A stretch of 64,000 nucleotides of DNA from Nannocystales bacterium. GTDB lineage: Bacteria; Myxococcota_A; Polyangia; Nannocystales; Nannocystaceae. The stretch spans positions 352,001 through 416,000 of the forward strand of contig JBOEGF010000005.1 of assembly GCA_050633305.1 (NCBI GenBank). The letters run 5' to 3'. Of this stretch, positions 56,938 to 64,000 are shown one piece after another. Both the position numbers and the translations under genes were made by a program. Below the pieces are notes generated by a model. It did no database searches, had not been told where the DNA came from, and was given only the letters and a program-made list of their open reading frames with translations. How positions within the stretch are numbered: position 1 is the first letter of the stretch; every line of letters begins with the position of its first letter.

Positions 56938-57459
56938 TCAGAATCCAAGCCGCGGTGTCGCGCTCGCGTAACGCTTCCATCGTTCGCCGAAGCGCTCCGC
57001 CAGCGCGCGCTCTTCGAGTTGCAGTCGAGCGACCAAAAGCGGGAGCTGGGCGGCGGCGAGAAATCCCGAGAACAAACTTGGGGCTGCGACGAACAACCCG
57101 AGCGTCCAACACAGGAGGCCGAGTTCGGACGGGTGCCGCATCACGCCATGGATGCCGGTCGTCACGAGGTGCTCGGCGTTCGCTTCGGTGCGGAACAGGG
57201 AGCCAAGGTTGCGCATGGCGGCGGCGCGGAGCCAGCCCCCGCCAACCAAGAGCCCCGCGGCGATGAGGGCTTGGGGGACTCCGGCGGCCCGAACCGACGC
57301 GTAGATCGAGGCCCCAAGTAGGAGCACGCTTGCCGTCAGCGCGATGACTCGCAAGGCTTGGTCATTGCGGTGGGTGCCCTCGGCGCGGGCCGGAGGTGAG
57401 ACCAGCGCCTCTTGCAGGATCGCGGCACCGATCCCGCACAGGACGAGCAGCGAACTCAC
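56938..57459 (-). CDS. Isoprenylcysteine carboxyl methyltransferase (ICMT/PEMT)-like membrane protein
   Basis: LVTTGIHGVMRHPSELG, EERALAERFGERWKRY. GTGA-coupled to the upstream gene. Confidence 0.82.
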   Translation of the reverse strand: MSSLLVLCGIGAAILQEALVSPPARAEGTHRNDQALRVIALTASVLLLGASIYASVRAAGVPQALIAAGLLVGGGWLRAAAMRNLGSLFRTEANAEHLVTTGIHGVMRHPSELGLLCWTLGLFVAAPSLFSGFLAAAQLPLLVARLQLEERALAERFGERWKRYASATPRLGF

Positions 57460-58067
57460 TGGCCGGCGACGTGGGCCGCGACCGCCTGCTCGATCACATC
57501 GGCAGGCATGCCCATAGCTGCACCCGCGCGGTGCAGGACCTGGTGGTCCTGAGGCTGGACCTGCCGAGTGGGAGCGAGCGTGGAGAGCATCAAACGCAGC
57601 AGCAGAGTCTTGCCGTCGGCGGAGAAGTCTTGGGTTTGGGCTTGAAAGGTCGGCTCAAGTTGGGCCTGGGCCTGCTGCGCGAACTGGACATCCTGGTGAA
57701 TGACTTCTTCGGCGACGAAGTCTTGGGTCACCTCTTGAAGCGCCGTGCGGAGCGCGTTCACGTTCTCCGGCTGGTAGCGGTTCGCGAACAACATGGCCAG
57801 CACCGACAGTCGCCGGAGCCTGTCGAACATCTCGGCGCGCTCGGCCGCAGGGTCATGGTGGAGCGCTTCCATGTCGAAGGTTCCGGCGCACGCATTGCAT
57901 TCGAGGTACTCGCCCGCCGTTCCCAAGGGGATGACCGGGATGAAGTACAGCGTGAACCATCGCTTCTGCTTCTTGTGCGAGTAGGGCTTCTGGGGACCGC
58001 AGCGCGGGCAGTTGAACACCCCCTGTCCTGCTGTGGGGTTGGTCGTACGAGTGCCGAAGATGATCAT
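57456..58067 (-). CDS. Zinc-ribbon (zf-ribbon_15) plus TerB-like domain protein
   Basis: MIIFG..CPRC..RWFTLYFIPVIP..ECNAC, followed by a TerB-like helical domain. Confidence 0.8.
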   Translation of the reverse strand: MIIFGTRTTNPTAGQGVFNCPRCGPQKPYSHKKQKRWFTLYFIPVIPLGTAGEYLECNACAGTFDMEALHHDPAAERAEMFDRLRRLSVLAMLFANRYQPENVNALRTALQEVTQDFVAEEVIHQDVQFAQQAQAQLEPTFQAQTQDFSADGKTLLLRLMLSTLAPTRQVQPQDHQVLHRAGAAMGMPADVIEQAVAAHVAGQ

Positions 58068-58112
58068 GACCGGCCCGAACTGTACCGCACCCCGGTGTGC
58101 GAGACTGGGTGC

Positions 58113-58682
58113 ATGGCTGCGCAGGACGCCACTCGGTGGGACGCGAAGTATCGAGGGCGAGCCCTGCCGACGCCGGGCCCAAGTGCGGCGTTGGAGTCGG
58201 TCGCCTCGTGGATCCCCGGCCAAGGTCGGCTCCTCGATCTGGCGGGGGGCGACGGCGCACAGGCCGTATGGCTTGCGGCACGAGGATTGGAGGTCACGCT
58301 CTGTGACGTCTCCGGCGTTGCACTGGAACGGGCAAAACGTGTTGCCGCAGCATCCGGGCAGAGCCTCACGACGCTGCAGATCGATCTCGAGATCGTGCCG
58401 CTCCCTGAAGGGCCGTGGTCGGCCGTGGTGTGTTCGAACTATCTACAACTGTCGTTGTGGCCTGCGGTGGCGAGCGCGTTGCGCCCTGGCGGAAGAGCGA
58501 TCTGGCTGCACCCCACCATCGAAAACCTGACGCGGCACGAGAAACCGAGTCGTCGATTTCTCCTCGAGCCCGGACAGGGCGAGCGCGTCATCGCCGACGC
58601 TGGCCTCGGGGTCGAGTTTACCGAGGAATCGTGGGTCGCCGGCCGCCACCTGTCCTGCGTGGTTGGATCGCGGGGTGCATGA
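58113..58682 (+). CDS. Class I SAM-dependent methyltransferase (TehB-like)
   Basis: RWDAKY, LLDLAGGDG, DVSGVAL, LRPGG, FLLEPG. Confidence 0.85.
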   Translation: MAAQDATRWDAKYRGRALPTPGPSAALESVASWIPGQGRLLDLAGGDGAQAVWLAARGLEVTLCDVSGVALERAKRVAAASGQSLTTLQIDLEIVPLPEGPWSAVVCSNYLQLSLWPAVASALRPGGRAIWLHPTIENLTRHEKPSRRFLLEPGQGERVIADAGLGVEFTEESWVAGRHLSCVVGSRGA

Positions 58683-58701: not shown

Positions 58702-59613
58702 TCAGCCGAACTGAACCGCGCTGACATGGGCGTGCATGAGCTGCGTTTGTAGCGGGATCTTGGCCTGATCTTCTTGTGCCGCGCCCGCGGCCACCATGAG
58801 CGGGAGCAGGTGCTCCGCGCGTGGATGGCATGCTCGGGCGGCGGGGGCTTGTTGCCACTGGGCCAAGCGTCGGGCTCGCTCGGACGGCGAGGCGAGAGTC
58901 GTCTCGACCATCCAATCGTCAAACGCCTTCGAGTCGTTGGCGACTTGGCGTTGTCCAGAGGCACTACCGCGCGCGGCACCGAATCCTCGCATGTTGTGGT
59001 AGCTCATTCCGCTGCCCACGATCAGGATCCCCTGCTTGCGCAGAGGGGCGAGCGCGCGGCCCATCGCGAAATGCTGCTGCGGATCCAACGACGCCAGCAG
59101 GGAGACCTGGAAGGTCGGGATGGAGGCGTTGGGGAAGGGCACCATCAGTGGGACGAATGCACCATGGTCGAAGCCGCGACGTTTGTCGGCTGCGGTCTTG
59201 AAACCTGCCGCGCCGAGATGCTCCTGGACCAGGGCTGCGGCTTCCGGGTCTCCCGGTGCGTTCCACTGGTACTCGTACGCCTCGGCTGGAAAACCGCCGT
59301 AGTCGTAGAGCATCGGGGGGCGGGGCGCGGATTGCACGGTGGGGACGCCCTCCTCCCAGTGGGCTGAGATGCACAGGATCGCCCGGGGGGGCCGCGGGAG
59401 TCCATCGGCCATGGTTGCGAGGTAGTTGCGAAGCGGCGCGTAAGCGTCGCGCATGCCCATGTCGACGATGGTCCACGGACCACCACCGTGCGGGACGAAG
59501 AGCGTTGGCAGGACGATGTCGGTCATGGCTCGTTGCTGCTCCTTGGGGCGTGCACAGCCTCCGAGTGCGAGGCTCGCGGCTCCGGTCAGGAAGCTTCGGC
59601 GCTTGTGATGCAC
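58702..59613 (-). CDS. DODA/YgiD-type (LigB) extradiol ring-cleavage dioxygenase with apparent Tat-lipoprotein signal
   Basis: HGGGPW, ISAHWE, YDYGGFP, RGFDHGAFVPL, GSGMSYHN, HPRAEHLLPL. N-terminus KRRSFL...LGGC. Confidence 0.88.
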   Translation of the reverse strand: MHHKRRSFLTGAASLALGGCARPKEQQRAMTDIVLPTLFVPHGGGPWTIVDMGMRDAYAPLRNYLATMADGLPRPPRAILCISAHWEEGVPTVQSAPRPPMLYDYGGFPAEAYEYQWNAPGDPEAAALVQEHLGAAGFKTAADKRRGFDHGAFVPLMVPFPNASIPTFQVSLLASLDPQQHFAMGRALAPLRKQGILIVGSGMSYHNMRGFGAARGSASGQRQVANDSKAFDDWMVETTLASPSERARRLAQWQQAPAARACHPRAEHLLPLMVAAGAAQEDQAKIPLQTQLMHAHVSAVQFG

Positions 59614-59736: not shown

Positions 59737-60900
59737 TCAGCGAATACCGGTCACAAGACCGGCACCCACCGTCTTCCCGCCCTCACGCATGGCAAAACGC
59801 ATGCCGACCTCGACCGCCACAGGGTGTTGCAGCTCGAAGTTCACCGTCGCGCGGTCACCGGGGCGGATGAGGTCCCCTCCGGTCTCGAGTGCGGCCGACA
59901 CATCGGTTGCGCCGAAGAACAGCTGCGGCGTGTACCCGCTCCCGAAGGGAGTGTGGCGTCCGCCCTCATCCTTGCGGAGGATGAAGACCTCGGCGGTGCC
60001 CCGCTGGTGGGGCGCAATGCTGCCCGGCAAGGCGAGCACCGATCCCCGGGCGATCTGGTCCCGCTTCACACCCCGGAGCAGGAGACCGACGTTGAGTCCG
60101 GCACTGGCTTCGGGGATGTCGCGATGGAAAGCCTGGATGCCTGTCACCACCACTTCACCGCCCTGCTCGCCCACGATGTCGACGGACGCGCCACGAGGGA
60201 GGACCCCACGCGAGACACGACCCGTGACCACGGTTCCACGCCCTTCGATCGTGTGCACGTTCTCCACGGGCATGAGGAATGCGCCCGTGAGGTCCCGCGC
60301 GGGTTCCTCGACGTCGTTGTCGAGCGCGCGGACGAGCGCTTGCACGGCCAGCACGGACGGGTCATCCCATCGCTGTTCGGTTGCAGCCTGCATGGCTTGC
60401 AACGCCGAGCCGCGGACGATGGTCGCGTTCTCGAACCCGTTGGCATCGAGCAACTCGGTGGTTTCCAGCTCGACCAGCTCGAGCAACTCCTCGTTGCTCA
60501 GGTCGACTTTGTTCACGAACACCACGAGTTGTTTCACGCCCACTTGTCGTGCCAACAGGACGTGTTCACGGGTCTGGGGCTCGGGGCCCTGCGACCCGTC
60601 GACGAGCAAGATTGCGCCGTCCATCTGGGACGCACCCGTGATCATGTTCTTCACGTAGTCGGCGTGGCCGGGGCAGTCGATGTGGGCGTAGTGCCGGATG
60701 CGCGAGTCGTACTGGACGTGTGCGGTGTTGATCGTGATGCCGCGCTCTCGCTCTTCGGGTGCGTTGTCGATCTGCTCGAACGCCTTTGCGGTGCCGCCAA
60801 AGTCGTGCGCGCACACCAGACTCAATGCCGCGGTGAGGGTCGTCTTGCCGTGATCGACGTGGCCGATCGTGCCGATGTTGACGTGGGTTTTGGTGACCAT
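59737..60900 (-). CDS. tuf: Elongation factor Tu paralogue (divergent, stand-alone, 387 aa)
   Basis: [50 protein letters not shown] at 60900 after AAGGA. No str-operon or tRNA context. Confidence 0.93.
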
Positions 60901-61040
60901 CTTCTCGTTCCTTGGAGCAGTGCTCCCTCGAAGTCCCATGGGTTGAACGCCCCCAGGTGCGTTGGGACGGGCCGAACCTGGGCGCAGGCCTGCGGGGTCG
61001 CGGGCGGTCTCGGTGGTGCGCGCGCTCGGTTCGAGCACGC

Positions 61041-61072
61041 AAAAAAGCCCCGTGCGCTGCTGCGTACGGGGC
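61041..61072 (-). terminator. Intrinsic terminator within the tuf leader (attenuator)
   Basis: Minus strand GCCCCGTACGC-AGCA-GCGCACGGGGC-TTTTTT, 140 nt upstream of the tuf start. Confidence 0.75.
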
Positions 61073-61092
61073 CCTGGTGGCGAACCGGGATG

Positions 61093-61218
61093 TTAATCCG
61101 CGGCGTTCCCAGAAGAGGAGGTCCGTGCACAGCGAGCGCGCCTACGTTCCGATGTCCCCGGATCCGTAAGGACCAGGGCCAGTCGTAGGGCGCCATCGGC
61201 TGTGCAGGTGCGGACCAT
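61093..61218 (-). promoter_or_regulatory. Putative leader uORF (41 aa) of the tuf attenuator
   Basis: MVRTCTADGALRLALVLTDPGTSERRRARCARTSSSGNAAD*; the stop lies about 20 nt before the terminator stem. Confidence 0.5.
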
Positions 61219-61229
61219 TGTTGGTCGCC

Positions 61230-61257
61230 AACATGGCACCGAACAGGAGAACGTCAA
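61230..61257 (-). promoter_or_regulatory. Putative sigma70-type promoter for the tuf leader
   Basis: Minus strand TTGACG-N16-CATGTT with TGn extension, about 11 nt upstream of the uORF ATG. Confidence 0.45.
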
Positions 61258-61351
61258 GGGGTTTTGGCTCTGCATCCGCGGATGGACGAACGCCCCGGCA
61301 GGTCCGATTCGGAGACGGAGGTCTTGCTTGGAGGCGTGCACCTGCGGCGTG

Positions 61352-64000
61352 TCAGGGCCGCGGGTGTTGCTCACGCCAGCGCGCGACGTCCCGCCGAATC
61401 TTGTCGGCCCACGGCTCTTGTACGCCAACGGTGAGCGCCTCCGCCTCTTCGACAGCCTCGGTCGCGAGCGGAAAATCGGCGGGGTCGGCGACGAGTCGAG
61501 CCGCGACGAAGACCAGGTTCTCGGCGAAGAGCTGAGGGCTGGGGTGGTCGGCACGCAGGGCCTCCAGGGTCTGGAGCAGGGACCGTCGTGCGTCGTCGTG
61601 TCGCTCGAGCCCACGGAAGGCGTCGGCCTGTTCGAGCCGCAGCAGCGCCGGGACGAGCCCGGCGGTCAGCGACAGTGTCTGGGCGCCTCGGAGTCCCCGC
61701 GTGCTGTGGGAGAGCGCGGAGTCCCACTGTTGTGCGGCGTTGGCCATTTGGGCGGCCACGATCCGAGTTCGGACGATCGGCATCGAGCCCTCGGGGTTGA
61801 GGCGGGCTGCCACCTCGACGAGCTCTGTGGTGTGCACCCATGCTGCATGGGCTCCACGTGCGTCGAGTAGGCAGTAGGTCCGGTTTTGCAGCGACTCCAC
61901 GTGGAACTCGCCGTGCAGCCGGTCTGCGGTCTCGAACGCGGCGTCGGCACGCTCGAAGGTGTCGATTGCGTCGTCGCACCGCTTTGCGATGCCCAACACG
62001 GACCCGCGGGTCGAGAGGGTGCGGGCGAGCTCGAGCGGGTCCTGCTCGTCGAGTTTGCGGAACAACGTGACCGCTCGATCGATGCTGGCCAGCGCCTCGT
62101 CGGCTCGTTCGAGGTCACCGAGCACCATCCCCTGGTCGCGCAGGGCCCGGAGCAACGCATAGGACTCCCCTTGTGTCTCCTGCGCGATGGAAACCCGACG
62201 GGTGTGACGCCTGGCGGCGCCCTCGAGGTCCCCGTGCTGGGCGTCGAGGTTGGCCATGAAGCCAAGTGGAAACAGCAGACGCGAATCGGTAGGACCGTGG
62301 CGCGTCTGTAGGGCCTCGATGACCTGCTCACCCTCTCGCCGGGCTTCGTCGCCGCGTCCCATCAATGACAGAATTCGGGCGCGCTCGATTCTCTGTGTCC
62401 AGGCGGCGACGTCGTCGCCCTCGGACATTTCGACCTTCACTGCCAGCGCTTCTTCGATGAGTGTGAGCGCGGTGGTGAGTTCTCCCCGGCCGACGGCGAG
62501 CTGGGCTCCAACTTCCGCCAGGTAGCGTTGGGAGTTCGGGTCGGGGCGTCGCTCGAGCGCGCCCTGAGCGATCCTCAGAAGGCGCGCCCCCTCGGCCGCG
62601 GTGCTCTGGTGAGCGCCGACGAGCAGCGCAAGCCCACCTGCTCCCCGGGGAACGTACCGGTGGTACCCGCTGGCCAACGACCGGCTCAAGACTCGCTCGT
62701 AGTCCGCCTTCGCGCGTTCTCGGAGCCCGTCCGTGGCGGCAAGGTCTGCCCGCAGGAGCCGTACCTCGATCTCGGCGGGCTCGTAGCCGGTGGCTTTGGC
62801 AAGGTCGAGCAGTGCGTCGACGCGTCGCTCGAGCCGTTGCCTCGACCCTGTCGCGAGCAGCGTTCGAAGCTCGGCGACATCGGAGCGGAGTTCGGCGACG
62901 GTGGCCCGTGTCGCGGCGTCGGCCGGAGGCGCGACGTCCCCGCGCAGGAGCTCGGTGTCTTCGCAGTCGGAGACGCGCGGCAGTTTGCCCAAGACTTGGT
63001 CGACCCGAGACACGATATTCCGAGTCGGAACACGAACGGTTCGCAGGATGCCGGTGGCGGTGGCGAGTTGCTCGTCGAGACAGGTCGCGCGCAGGTCGTA
63101 CATGGCTTCGGACTGACTCTGCTCGACTCGCGCGGCGAGACACGCGTCGGTGCGGCTCGCTGCCCAGGCATTGGCGAACGCGTCCAATCTCGCCGCGATC
63201 AGGGTCCCAGCGGAAGTCGCATGGGGGATGTCGGCTTGTCCGTACGCCTGCTCGACGTGGTCGCGTTCCTCGTCGTTCCACAATGCCGACATCCCTTCAG
63301 CTGCGGCGATGCACGGCTTGTCTCCCAGTGCCCATTGAGCCGAGACGACGGCGCCCGCTGTGAGGCTGACAAGCGCCGCTGCGGCGCCGACCCTTCGTCG
63401 AGCCGTGGCAGGGTCTCGCTCGAGCGCGTCGAGCAAGGCGTCCATGCTCGGGTACCGCGCCTCGGGTGTTCCGGCCAGGCCTTGGCAGAGGATCGGCCAT
63501 ACTCTGGTAGGCGCTCGGCCGGGCGGCGGCGTCCGAATGCGGCCCGCCATAATCTCTGCGAGAGGGTCCTCGGCTGCGGCGTCAGCCCGGAATGGCGCCT
63601 GAGCATGGAGGGCCACGTACAGGCTCACGCAGAAGGCGAACTGGTCGGCGGCGGCCGTGAGGGGCTCGCCCCGACATTGCTCGGGCGGCATGTACATCGG
63701 GGTACCGACCGGGCTGAGCGTGGTGGTCACGCTGGTCAGTGGGTTGGGGGACGCCTCAGAATCTGAGGCCGAGGCCGAGGTCTCCTCGTTGACGACGCGG
63801 TGTGCGAGACCGAAGTCTGCAACGCGAGGCCGCCCTTCGGCGTCCAACAACACGTTATCGGGCTTGAAGTCGCGGTGCACCAAGTCGATCGCATGGGCAG
63901 CTGCGAGCCCGCGGCCCGCCGCGACGAACATGTCGAGGACCTGGGCAGGACTCCGGTGCTGCGCGGTCAGCCACCCGCGTAGCGAGCCCCCGGGCGCGAA
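61352..64000 (-). CDS. Ser/Thr kinase with TM segment and TPR repeats, 5'-truncated by window edge
   Basis: Open to position 64000; HRDFKPDNVL, DFGLA, GTPMYMPPE, DQFAFCV, Cys-containing helical domain and TPR repeats. Confidence 0.92.
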   Translation of the reverse strand, partial: FAPGGSLRGWLTAQHRSPAQVLDMFVAAGRGLAAAHAIDLVHRDFKPDNVLLDAEGRPRVADFGLAHRVVNEETSASASDSEASPNPLTSVTTTLSPVGTPMYMPPEQCRGEPLTAAADQFAFCVSLYVALHAQAPFRADAAAEDPLAEIMAGRIRTPPPGRAPTRVWPILCQGLAGTPEARYPSMDALLDALERDPATARRRVGAAAALVSLTAGAVVSAQWALGDKPCIAAAEGMSALWNDEERDHVEQAYGQADIPHATSAGTLIAARLDAFANAWAASRTDACLAARVEQSQSEAMYDLRATCLDEQLATATGILRTVRVPTRNIVSRVDQVLGKLPRVSDCEDTELLRGDVAPPADAATRATVAELRSDVAELRTLLATGSRQRLERRVDALLDLAKATGYEPAEIEVRLLRADLAATDGLRERAKADYERVLSRSLASGYHRYVPRGAGGLALLVGAHQSTAAEGARLLRIAQGALERRPDPNSQRYLAEVGAQLAVGRGELTTALTLIEEALAVKVEMSEGDDVAAWTQRIERARILSLMGRGDEARREGEQVIEALQTRHGPTDSRLLFPLGFMANLDAQHGDLEGAARRHTRRVSIAQETQGESYALLRALRDQGMVLGDLERADEALASIDRAVTLFRKLDEQDPLELARTLSTRGSVLGIAKRCDDAIDTFERADAAFETADRLHGEFHVESLQNRTYCLLDARGAHAAWVHTTELVEVAARLNPEGSMPIVRTRIVAAQMANAAQQWDSALSHSTRGLRGAQTLSLTAGLVPALLRLEQADAFRGLERHDDARRSLLQTLEALRADHPSPQLFAENLVFVAARLVADPADFPLATEAVEEAEALTVGVQEPWADKIRRDVARWREQHPRP

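What the first reader, a model, noticed from the sequence alone, without database searches (positions are those of the whole stretch)
60901..61260. Ribosome-controlled attenuator upstream of a spare EF-Tu gene
Seen on the minus strand, in order: (i) a promoter-like TTGACG..CATGTT; (ii) a 41-codon uORF (61218-61093); (iii) a long hairpin in which the uORF start (GGTCCG/TGCACAGC, 61216-61199) pairs with GCTGTGCACGGACC (61133-61120); (iv) a mutually exclusive helix GGCCCTGGT (61180-61172) : ACCAGGGCC (61078-61070) that takes the base of (v) a GC stem + U6 terminator (61072-61041). Established: this is the layout of ribosome-mediated transcription attenuators. Inference: a ribosome stalled on the first uORF codons, as expected when EF-Tu or elongation is blocked, would free the antiterminator and induce the paralogous EF-Tu. 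That would be an elongation-failure sensor for a backup translation factor. I am not aware of it being described in myxobacteria.
Basis: partly seen in the sequence, partly recalled or inferred. Interest (0 to 1): 0.85.

Follow-up and report, generated by a model that had tools for sequence, protein, structure and literature searches.

The report
Leader-peptide attenuator before divergent EF-Tu
A short translated leader and a terminator hairpin sit in front of an unusual extra copy of the protein-synthesis factor EF-Tu in this myxobacterium and many relatives, which suggests the factor is switched on when ribosomes stall, though nobody has tested this.

Summary
They lie upstream of a divergent EF-Tu paralogue (60900-59737, minus strand). 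The fold is far more stable than shuffles (z -4.45).

The layout is not a local accident. The paralogue occurs in 61 of 400 genomes of the class. In many families it carries the same leader: a TTGACR promoter, an ATG 7-15 nt after the -10 box, a 20-42-codon uORF and a strong hairpin. The uORF stop lies 10-50 nt before that hairpin in 21 of 31 leaders. The other two frames give 2 and 9 of 31.

It is near chance level, is not conserved, and is predicted at only one ribosome position. A different antiterminator is predicted more broadly: the 3' arm of the long hairpin pairing with the terminator's 5' arm. Controls make this suggestive only.

The closest relatives (G003, G005) lack a clean U-tract. 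No expression data exist.

The best reading is a ribosome-dependent transcription attenuator, a known kind of device on a new target. The inducing signal is unknown.

The parts
61252..61257 (-). -35-like hexamer TTGACG
   Evidence: Read. A TTGACN box with a 16-18 nt spacer is found upstream of the paralogue in 48 of 56 loci.
61230..61235 (-). -10-like hexamer CATGTT, 16-nt spacer
   Evidence: It matches TATAAT at 3 of 6 positions and was not listed by the scanner. The same position holds TATCTT in G018.
61093..61218 (-). uORF, 41 codons plus TAA. Its ATG lies 11 nt after the -10 hexamer, so the leader is very short or absent (the transcription start is inferred, not measured).
   Evidence: An ATG-started ORF of 15-60 codons begins within 15 nt of the -10 in 31 of 56 paralogue leaders. 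Among regex promoters elsewhere in the window the figure is 2 of 25, and one of those two may be this leader itself.
61120..61216 (-). Long hairpin P1. The 5' arm is 61216-61199 and the 3' arm is 61133-61120. It encloses an apical hairpin and lies wholly inside the uORF.
   Evidence: Minimum-free-energy folds. Equivalent hairpins occur in G003, G005, G018 and G038 with different sequence.
61085..61104 (-). Small hairpin with the uORF stop codon (61095-61093) in its loop. Coordinates are approximate.
   Evidence: Folds.
61041..61072 (-). Intrinsic-terminator-like hairpin: 61072-61062 pairs with 61057-61047, loop AGCA, followed by U6 at 61046-61041.
   Evidence: The stem is conserved in G003 and G005, but their tail is not a U-run. 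Analogous stems with T-runs occur in G018, G038 and many other families.
61059..61133 (-). Predicted antiterminator: 61133-61116 (P1 3' arm and the bases after it) pairs with 61075-61059 (terminator 5' arm and loop).
   Evidence: Nascent-transcript folds with a ribosome footprint at codons 1-4 and 9-14. Duplex z = -2.05. Shuffle control: 4 of 30 reach the observed value.
61070..61180 (-).
   Evidence: Exact 9-nt complement. Chance rate 10.8%. Predicted only with the ribosome near codon 6 in the nascent model.
60901..61040 (-). Structured spacer between the terminator and the EF-Tu start. It is partly conserved with G003 and G005.
   Evidence: Alignment and folds. No TTGACN promoter lies in it.
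59737..60900 (-). Divergent EF-Tu paralogue, 387 aa.
   Evidence: Pfam GTP_EFTU, D2 and D3. Scores 514.9 bits against a TIGR00485 cut-off of 522.4; a canonical copy scores 708. About 57% identical to canonical EF-Tu of relatives and 62-84% identical to clade members.

Best explanation
The 320-nt region upstream of the EF-Tu paralogue is most likely a leader-peptide, ribosome-dependent transcription attenuator.

Proposed sequence of events:
- Transcription starts a few bases before the uORF ATG. This is inferred from the promoter spacing.
- If no ribosome is on the first third of the uORF, the long hairpin P1 forms. The terminator's 5' arm stays free, the terminator folds, and transcription stops at about 61041.
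- A ribosome that has translated on to the stop codon gives the same result.
- If a ribosome is held on roughly codons 1-16, the 5' arm of P1 is occupied. The 3' arm of P1 is then free to pair with the terminator's 5' arm as it emerges. RNA polymerase reads through into the EF-Tu paralogue.

Shown: the sequence elements, their stability, and their recurrence and geometry in relatives.
Inferred: the transcription start, translation of the uORF, termination at the U6 tail, the switch itself, and the signal that stalls the ribosome.
For: - Stability. The fold has z = -4.45.
- Distribution of the paralogue. It is present in 38 of 72 genomes of the family and 61 of 400 genomes of the class.
- Promoter and uORF. 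Of 56 paralogue loci, 48 have a TTGACN promoter-like site. Of these, 43 have an ATG ORF of 15-60 codons within 75 nt of the -10, and 31 within 15 nt. The background in the window is 2 of 25. Other genera have strong Shine-Dalgarno sequences before conserved short ORFs.
- Geometry. I picked the strongest T-followed hairpin without reference to the uORF. The ATG-frame stop then lies 10-50 nt before it in 21 of 31 leaders (median 29 nt). The other two frames give 2 and 9 of 31. The stop falls inside or after the hairpin in 2 of 31 leaders, against 17 and 13.
- No room for a second promoter in some relatives. In G038 and L148 the terminator ends only about 25-40 nt before the EF-Tu start.
- Nascent-transcript folding of the window. 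The terminator 5' arm is paired upstream with probability 0.13-0.17 without a ribosome. This rises to about 0.7 with the P-site at codons 1-16, falls to about 0.1 at codons 17-21, and is 0-0.3 at codons 36-41.
- Same low-high-low pattern in about 10 of 27 leaders from several families.
- In G018, 9 nt of the P1 3' arm are a perfect complement of the top of the terminator.
Against: - No RNA data. No RNA run holds this sequence, so the transcription start, the 3' end and uORF translation are all unobserved.
- The nearest relatives G003 and G005 keep the stem but have no clean U-run.
- Full-length equilibrium folds destabilise the terminator only at codons 5-7 in the window. They never do so in G003 or G038. 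Of 14 leaders scanned they do so in only 4, one of them at a single codon.
- Shuffle controls of the terminator 5' arm reach the observed contrast in 4 of 30 trials for the window. For ten leaders that I had picked as the best of 27, the range is 0-9 of 30.
- About 17 of 27 leaders show no clear switch in the model.
- Strict terminators (T-run of 5 or more) were clear in only 4 of the first 35 leaders.
- The leader peptide is not conserved across genera. The window's uORF has no run of any one codon.
- Relatives are not independent samples.
Confidence: 0.55

Rival explanations
1. The conserved uORF and hairpin leader does regulate the paralogue, but not by switching an intrinsic terminator. 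Options are Rho-dependent termination, mRNA stability or processing, or control of EF-Tu translation through the structured spacer.
For: G003 and G005 lack a U-run. Many family-f1 leaders have a Shine-Dalgarno-led uORF and hairpins spanning the uORF stop, but no canonical terminator. The 140-nt spacer after the terminator is itself structured and partly conserved. Some loci carry a tRNA inside the leader that must be processed out.
Against: The window, G018, G038 and most leaders from other families do carry a strong stem followed by a T-run, at a fixed distance after the uORF stop.
Confidence: 0.2
2. It is a classical amino-acid-specific attenuator that senses the charging of one tRNA (Ser, Tyr or Cys) rather than general elongation failure.
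For: Many leaders outside the window's genus have runs of Ser codons early in the uORF. In-frame TCA is counted 36 times, against 4 and 1 in the other frames. All 7 loci with a tRNA-Tyr in the leader have Tyr codons in their short ORF.
Against: The window's uORF has no Ser, Tyr or other codon run in codons 1-19. Overall Ser richness is not frame-specific: 20.8% in frame against 22.8% in frame +1. An HMM of the Tyr-type leader peptides does not pick out the window's uORF among the top 12 hits.
Confidence: 0.1
3. The promoter-to-terminator unit is an independent small RNA of about 180 nt, or a micro-protein gene. The EF-Tu paralogue is transcribed from a promoter of its own.
For: The unit has its own promoter-like site and terminator, and a very stable fold.
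Against: It is always found directly upstream of the paralogue, in the same orientation, in several families. There is no TTGACN promoter in the spacer. In some relatives the terminator abuts the EF-Tu ribosome-binding site. The genome holds a single copy. No Rfam family matches. The peptide is not conserved.
Confidence: 0.1
4. It is chance structure in GC-rich intergenic DNA.
For: GC-rich sequence folds readily. The 9-nt helix (iv) is near chance level.
Against: The fold has z = -4.45. The geometry is conserved and frame-specific across diverged leaders.
Confidence: 0.03

Closest known systems
Leader-peptide transcription attenuators of amino-acid operons and of pheST (trp, his, thr, pheA type). 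Recalled textbook knowledge.
   Same: A promoter-proximal short ORF. A hairpin 1:2 that includes the early codons. A predicted alternative pairing 2:3. A terminator 3:4. A stop codon placed shortly before the terminator.
   Different: The window's uORF has no run of regulatory codons. The uORF seems to start almost at the 5' end of the RNA. The controlled gene is a translation factor paralogue. The antiterminator is only weakly supported by controls.
Antibiotic-inducible leader peptides of resistance genes. The ermC passages were read in PMC6685928. Attenuators of ABC-F genes are recalled.
   Same: Ribosome pausing on a leader peptide remodels downstream RNA and switches on a gene that protects translation.
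   Different: No drug dependence is known here. ermC acts on the ribosome-binding site, not on a terminator. The peptide has no recognised arrest motif. In the searches I found no case of an EF-Tu gene under such control.
Streptomyces tuf3 / EF-Tu3 (the 'actEF-Tu2' subfamily). Passages read in PMC4342817.
   Same: A third, divergent, non-essential-looking EF-Tu beside the canonical copies. There it is stress-induced and resistant to EF-Tu inhibitors. Here the clade has changes in the aminoacyl-tRNA and inhibitor pocket.
   Different: A different phylum. Orthology was not tested. That paper states that the actinomycete group is the only clearly distinct EF-Tu-like subfamily in bacteria, so the Polyangia clade is not described there. 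tuf3 is reported there as stress-induced; the cited title (reference 25) says 'positive stringent control'. No leader peptide is mentioned in the passages I read.
The tufB-type operon: tRNA-Thr, tRNA-Tyr, tRNA-Gly, tRNA-Thr, tuf.
   Same: Canonical tuf genes of relatives have exactly this tRNA set upstream. In 7 of the first 35 paralogue loci (7 of 56 overall) a tRNA-Tyr alone sits between the leader and the paralogue.
   Different: The window has no tRNA in its leader. The paralogue has a promoter and uORF of its own.

Membership tests
Ribosome-dependent (leader-peptide) transcription attenuator | Short ORF translated close behind the promoter | tested here: inconclusive
   The ATG is at a conserved distance from the -10 in 31 of 56 leaders, against 2 of 25 in the background. 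Other genera have Shine-Dalgarno-led ORFs. No ribosome or RNA data exist.
Ribosome-dependent (leader-peptide) transcription attenuator | Intrinsic terminator between the leader ORF and the regulated gene | tested here: met
   An 11-pair stem plus U6 at 61072-61041. The U-run is missing in G003 and G005.
Ribosome-dependent (leader-peptide) transcription attenuator | Antiterminator mutually exclusive with the terminator, freed by a ribosome on the early codons | tested here: inconclusive
Predicted in nascent-transcript folds. Equilibrium folds support it only at codons 5-7. In the shuffle control, 4 of 30 reach the observed value.
Ribosome-dependent (leader-peptide) transcription attenuator | Leader ORF ends shortly before the terminator | tested here: met
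   The gap is 19 nt in the window. It is 10-50 nt in 21 of 31 leaders in the ATG frame, against 2 and 9 of 31 in the other frames.
Ribosome-dependent (leader-peptide) transcription attenuator | Run of regulatory codons or a known arrest motif | tested here: not met
   There is none in the window's 41 codons. Ser- or Tyr-rich leaders occur only in other lineages.
Ribosome-dependent (leader-peptide) transcription attenuator | Condition-dependent read-through | not testable with these tools
   The genome is a metagenome assembly, and no RNA run holds it.
EF-Tu (TIGR00485 equivalog) | Three-domain architecture, with the GTPase motifs aligned to solved EF-Tu | tested here: met
   Pfam hits. Alignment to solved EF-Tu chains.
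EF-Tu (TIGR00485 equivalog) | Score above the curated equivalog cut-off | tested here: not met
   514.9 bits against a cut-off of 522.4. A canonical copy of a relative scores 708. The looser 'subfamily' EF-Tu models are passed.
Inhibitor-resistant spare EF-Tu (Streptomyces EF-Tu3 type) | Separate clade with substitutions at inhibitor-contact sites, and measured resistance | tested here: inconclusive
   Clade-wide changes in the pocket are shown. The link of these positions to resistance is recalled and was not found in the library. Resistance cannot be tested here.
Any Rfam family | Match at the gathering score | tested here: not met
   Nothing at E up to 10 on the window's leader. Nothing at the gathering score on the leaders of 39 related loci, other than tRNA, rRNA and one Pistol hit elsewhere.

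The most novel reading that the evidence does not exclude
A feedback loop for elongation failure. Ribosomes that stall on an almost leaderless uORF, for want of usable ternary complex, switch on an EF-Tu with a rebuilt aminoacyl-tRNA pocket. That EF-Tu is either insensitive to inhibitors that block ternary-complex formation, or specialised for particular aminoacyl-tRNAs. The second option is hinted at by the dedicated, atypical tRNA-Tyr and the Tyr-codon leaders in some genera.
Probability: 0.25. Interest if true: 0.8.

Novelty: new member of a known kind. Interest (0 to 1): 0.6.

Why it matters
EF-Tu is among the most abundant and most conserved bacterial proteins. Divergent extra copies are rare, and outside Streptomyces they are hardly studied. 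This locus offers two things.

- It points to a class-wide, apparently undescribed EF-Tu clade in Polyangia whose aminoacyl-tRNA pocket is altered.
- It gives that clade a recognisable regulatory leader. This turns the question 'when is the odd EF-Tu used?' into a testable one, using reporter fusions, Term-seq, and drug or starvation treatments.

If the leader senses stalled ribosomes, it would be the first case I know of in which a translation elongation factor itself is the output of a leader-peptide attenuator.

Tried and rejected
- **Rfam.** No family matched the window's leader at E up to 10, nor the related leaders at gathering score.
- **tRNA remnant in the window's leader.** ARAGORN found none.
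- **Peptide homology between the window's uORF and the Tyr-type leader peptides.** An HMM search of the six-frame window did not place the uORF among the top 12 hits. Dropped.
- **Ser-codon sensing.** Ser richness is equal in frame +1, and the window has no early Ser codon. Kept only as a lead for other lineages.
Chance rate 10.8%, not conserved, probability about 0 in equilibrium scans.
- **Equilibrium ribosome-mask folding as a general test.** Terminators of -20 to -32 kcal/mol are rarely out-competed. I replaced it with a nascent-transcript model.
- **Conserved neighbours.** The LigB-type dioxygenase and the methyltransferase downstream are shared only with G003.
- **The search for related loci in genome contigs.** One universal EF-Tu peptide pattern swamped the result with canonical EF-Tu. 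It was useful only for naming a Labilithrix MAG as the nearest named hit.
- **RNA evidence.** No RNA run holds the stretch. Read laying was not used, because contigs cannot show RNA ends.
- **RNAalifold on four leaders.** MAFFT misaligned G018 and the outer stem was lost. Not used as evidence.
- **Duplex-energy test over 17 leaders.** Only the five-leader version exists.
- **Papers on resistance residues.** PMC1855904 and PMC5701666 are not held. A search for the mutation names found nothing.
- **Earlier findings of this scan.** None bears on this locus.

Full report
**What is there**

On the minus strand, a Ser/Thr-kinase/TPR gene ends at 61352. A 450-nt intergenic region follows. An EF-Tu homologue of 387 aa then runs 60900-59737, with Pfam GTP_EFTU, D2 and D3.

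Reading, the intergenic region contains:
- TTGACG at 61257-61252 and, 16 nt later, CATGTT at 61235-61230.
- An ATG at 61218, opening a 41-codon ORF that ends with TAA at 61095-61093.
- A GC stem, 61072-61062 paired with 61057-61047, followed by U6 at 61046-61041.

The stretch 61260-61030 folds at -109.1 kcal/mol, against -88.2 +/- 4.7 for 200 dinucleotide shuffles (z -4.45, none as stable).

The simple promoter/terminator scanner listed neither the promoter nor the terminator. The -10 matches the consensus at only 3 of 6 positions, and the stem has one A-C mismatch. No Rfam family matches at E up to 10. There is no tRNA in the window. The 231-nt element occurs once in the genome.

**The gene behind it**

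The genome's canonical tuf copies lie on contig ends and are 51-68% identical to this protein. In relatives, canonical EF-Tu is about 57% identical. A separate set of proteins is 62-84% identical.

At E <= 1e-142, a threshold that canonical copies do not reach, the paralogue is found in:
- 38 of 72 genomes of the family.
- 61 of 400 sampled genomes of the class, in nine or more families. This count includes one unpublished genome, G349, whose DNA I did not fetch.

The nearest named record is a Labilithrix MAG, which belongs to Polyangia, Myxococcota.

The protein scores 514.9 bits against the EF-Tu equivalog model, just under its cut-off of 522.4. A canonical copy scores 708.

I compared 32 paralogues with 15 canonical EF-Tu sequences of the same class. 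The clade differs at invariant positions:
- The E-D-V-F stretch is E-x-[V/T]-[H/C] in 31 of 32. In the window these are residues E213, N214, V215 and H216.
- V-E-M-F becomes I-Q-[A/M]-F in most paralogues; the E-to-Q change is in 31 of 32 (window Q256).
- The Arg of F-R-T-T-D-V is Gly in 32 of 32 (window G330), and the next residue is mostly Ala.
- Further changes lie at window positions 46, 99, 104, 263, 265, 301, 336 and 350.

[quoted passage not shown] They also include sites where E. coli mutations give resistance to pulvomycin, and the window's N154 aligns with a kirromycin-resistance site. A search for those mutation names found no paper in the library.

Passages I read support three general points:
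- GE2270A competes with aminoacyl-tRNA for its site on EF-Tu, and pulvomycin acts similarly (PMC4307249).
- One resistant EF-Tu copy suffices against inhibitors of ternary-complex formation, whereas kirromycin sensitivity is dominant (PMC6685928).
- The only clearly distinct bacterial EF-Tu-like subfamily recognised in a 2015 survey is the stress-induced, inhibitor-resistant actinomycete one (PMC4342817).

So 'spare EF-Tu' is too simple. This is an old, distinct clade with a remodelled pocket.

**Is the leader conserved?**

The DNA from the promoter to the terminator is 67-68% identical in two species of the same genus, G003 and G005.

In G003, G005, G018 (70% protein identity) and G038 (another family), the sequence differs but the plan is the same:
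- TTGACG, a 16-nt spacer and a -10-like hexamer.
- An ATG 9-11 nt later.
- A hairpin of about 95-100 nt that begins at the start codon and lies inside a 30-41-codon ORF.
- A small hairpin, then a GC stem.

Leaders fetched from other families of the class show the plan again, mostly with strong stems followed by T-runs.

An automatic pass that uses no hand-picked sequence gave these counts:
- 56 paralogue loci examined.
- 48 have a TTGACN promoter-like site.
- 43 have an ATG ORF of 15-60 codons within 75 nt of the -10.
- 31 have it within 15 nt.

Among TTGACN-type matches elsewhere in the 64-kb window, 2 of 25 have such an ORF at 7-15 nt. One of these may be the leader itself.

The strongest single result concerns geometry. 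I chose the most stable T-followed hairpin between the ATG and the gene without looking at the ORF. The ATG-frame stop then lies 10-50 nt before that hairpin in 21 of 31 leaders (median 29 nt; 19 nt in the window). The other two frames give 2 of 31 and 9 of 31. The stop falls inside or beyond the hairpin in 2, 17 and 13 of 31 respectively. The ten leaders that fall outside the 10-50 nt range all belong to family f1; most are the Sorangium-like and MT[TA]KRQ-type groups.

In other genera of the family the short ORF has a strong Shine-Dalgarno sequence. Its peptide is conserved within groups, and a stretch inside the ORF pairs with a stretch after its stop.

These are related genomes, so the counts overstate independence. 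The sequences are, however, largely unalignable between groups.

**Does it switch?**

Such a pair arises in 10.8% of shuffles. It is not kept in G003 or G005. Its probability is about 0 at all 21 ribosome positions sampled (every second codon) in full-length folds.

*Full-length equilibrium folds.* The terminator loses probability only with the P-site at codons 5-7 (0.43, 0.07, 0.07). This happens through pairing of the freed 3' arm of the long hairpin with the terminator's 5' arm and loop. The same scan on relatives:
- G018: the terminator is abolished at codons 3-9 and stays weak to codon 11. Here 9 nt of the hairpin's 3' arm are a perfect complement of the top of the terminator.
- G003 and G038: never.
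- G005: only at codon 9.

Among 14 leaders scanned, only 4 show any loss, one of them at a single codon.

*Duplex energies.* Between the hairpin's 3' arm and the terminator's 5' half, z is -2.05 (window), -2.11 (G018), -1.0 (G003), -0.6 (G005) and +2.7 (G038).

*Nascent-transcript model.* Attenuation is a kinetic choice, so I also folded the transcript as it exists before the terminator's 3' arm is made. For the window:

| Ribosome P-site | Probability that the terminator 5' arm is paired upstream |
|---|---|
| no ribosome | 0.13-0.17 |
| codons 1-16 | about 0.7 |
| codons 17-21 | about 0.1 |
| codons 23-33 | high again (P1 3' arm covered; terminator 5' arm pairs with the 5' region) |
| codons 36-41 | 0-0.3 |

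The partner is 61133-61116 pairing with 61075-61059.

About 10 of 27 leaders from several families show the same low-high-low pattern. About 17 do not.

*Control.* I shuffled the terminator 5' arm and loop, 30 times each, for the ten leaders I had picked as best. The shuffles reached the observed contrast in 4 (window), 1, 0, 4, 9, 1, 2, 8, 6 and 4 of 30 trials.

The switch is therefore plausible and consistent with the classical 1:2 / 2:3 / 3:4 design, but it is not demonstrated.

**What argues against**

- The nearest relatives keep the stem but have no clean U-run.
- Strict terminators were clear in only 4 of the first 35 leaders.
- The leader peptide is not conserved between groups. An HMM of one peptide group does not find the window's uORF among the top 12 hits.
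- The window's uORF has no codon run.
- No RNA run holds the sequence, so the transcription start, the 3' end and uORF translation are all unobserved.

**Verdict**

The general interpretation, a ribosome-dependent attenuator in front of a paralogous EF-Tu, is the best-supported reading (about 0.55). The particular antiterminator and the proposed signal are not supported by evidence.

The main rival is that the same leader acts through Rho, RNA stability or translation (about 0.2). An amino-acid-specific sensor (0.1), an independent small RNA (0.1) and chance (0.03) follow.

As a kind of device it is known. As a regulated target it appears new. I found no description in the searches. For those papers I saw only listings or abstracts, apart from the passages named above.

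Noticed in passing
L018:1371-1458, L022:2739-2824, L126:2738-2820, L130:1337-1419, L132:2676-2764, L138:2720-2804 (and L143): In 7 of the first 35 paralogue loci (7 of 56 overall; four genera), a tRNA-Tyr(GTA) sits between the leader and the EF-Tu paralogue. No other tRNA species occupies this place in family f1. Canonical tuf genes of relatives carry the usual Thr-Tyr-Gly-Thr tRNA set, so this is a second tRNA-Tyr. ARAGORN draws several of them as atypical: first pair C-G or T-A, G after the anticodon, or a nearly absent D stem. The Rfam tRNA model at gathering score found only L138's among L018, L022, L126 and L138.
   Followed up: partly
Leaders of L018, L126, L130, L132, L143, L138, L022: The short ORFs of all 7 tRNA-Tyr-bearing leaders contain Tyr codons. 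Six of them have 2-4, mostly the rare TAT. Few of the other leaders have any. This looks like a Tyr-codon leader peptide tied to a dedicated tRNA-Tyr and an EF-Tu with a changed aminoacyl pocket. The loci come from only four genera, so independence is low.
   Followed up: partly
window 59737-60900 (-) and 31 related proteins: The clade shows wide remodelling of what I recall to be the aminoacyl/3'-end pocket of EF-Tu, with E-D-V-F becoming E-x-V-H/C, E becoming Q, and R becoming G, among other changes. From memory, engineered EF-Tu variants for bulky or charged non-standard amino acids change the same stretch.
   Followed up: partly
About 40 nt before the paralogue start in L024, L021, L025, L127, L128, L129, L133, L138: A conserved motif, CAGGCTGAC, is followed by a 4-5-pair hairpin with loop GAAAGA. 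The stem varies with compensating changes. The window does not have it.
   Followed up: no
uORFs of L043, L146, L148, L150, L151, L159, L160, L161, L163, L164, L017: Early runs of Ser codons occur. In-frame TCA is counted 36 times, against 4 and 1 in the other frames. Overall Ser richness is not frame-specific.
   Followed up: partly
L144:2749-3299: In G162 the paralogue is followed by an array of tRNA genes. Within the array is a match to the Pistol ribozyme family just above its gathering score (39.3 against 34.5 bits). tRNA-Asp and tRNA-Pro lie upstream of the paralogue.
   Followed up: no
L024, about 100-320 nt upstream of the paralogue start: Three tandem copies of a unit of about 100 nt fill the leader of G007.
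   Followed up: no
window 58702-59613 (-) and 57396-58682 (+): A LigB-type extradiol dioxygenase lies directly downstream of the paralogue, and a methyltransferase lies beyond it. Both are shared only with G003.
   Followed up: yes
After the terminator in L151, L159, L160 and others of family f15: A conserved TTTCGGGCC motif and a small hairpin GCGGA-TGG-TCCGC follow the terminator. The nine bases ATGGTCCGC of that hairpin also form the uORF start in the window and in L161.
   Followed up: no
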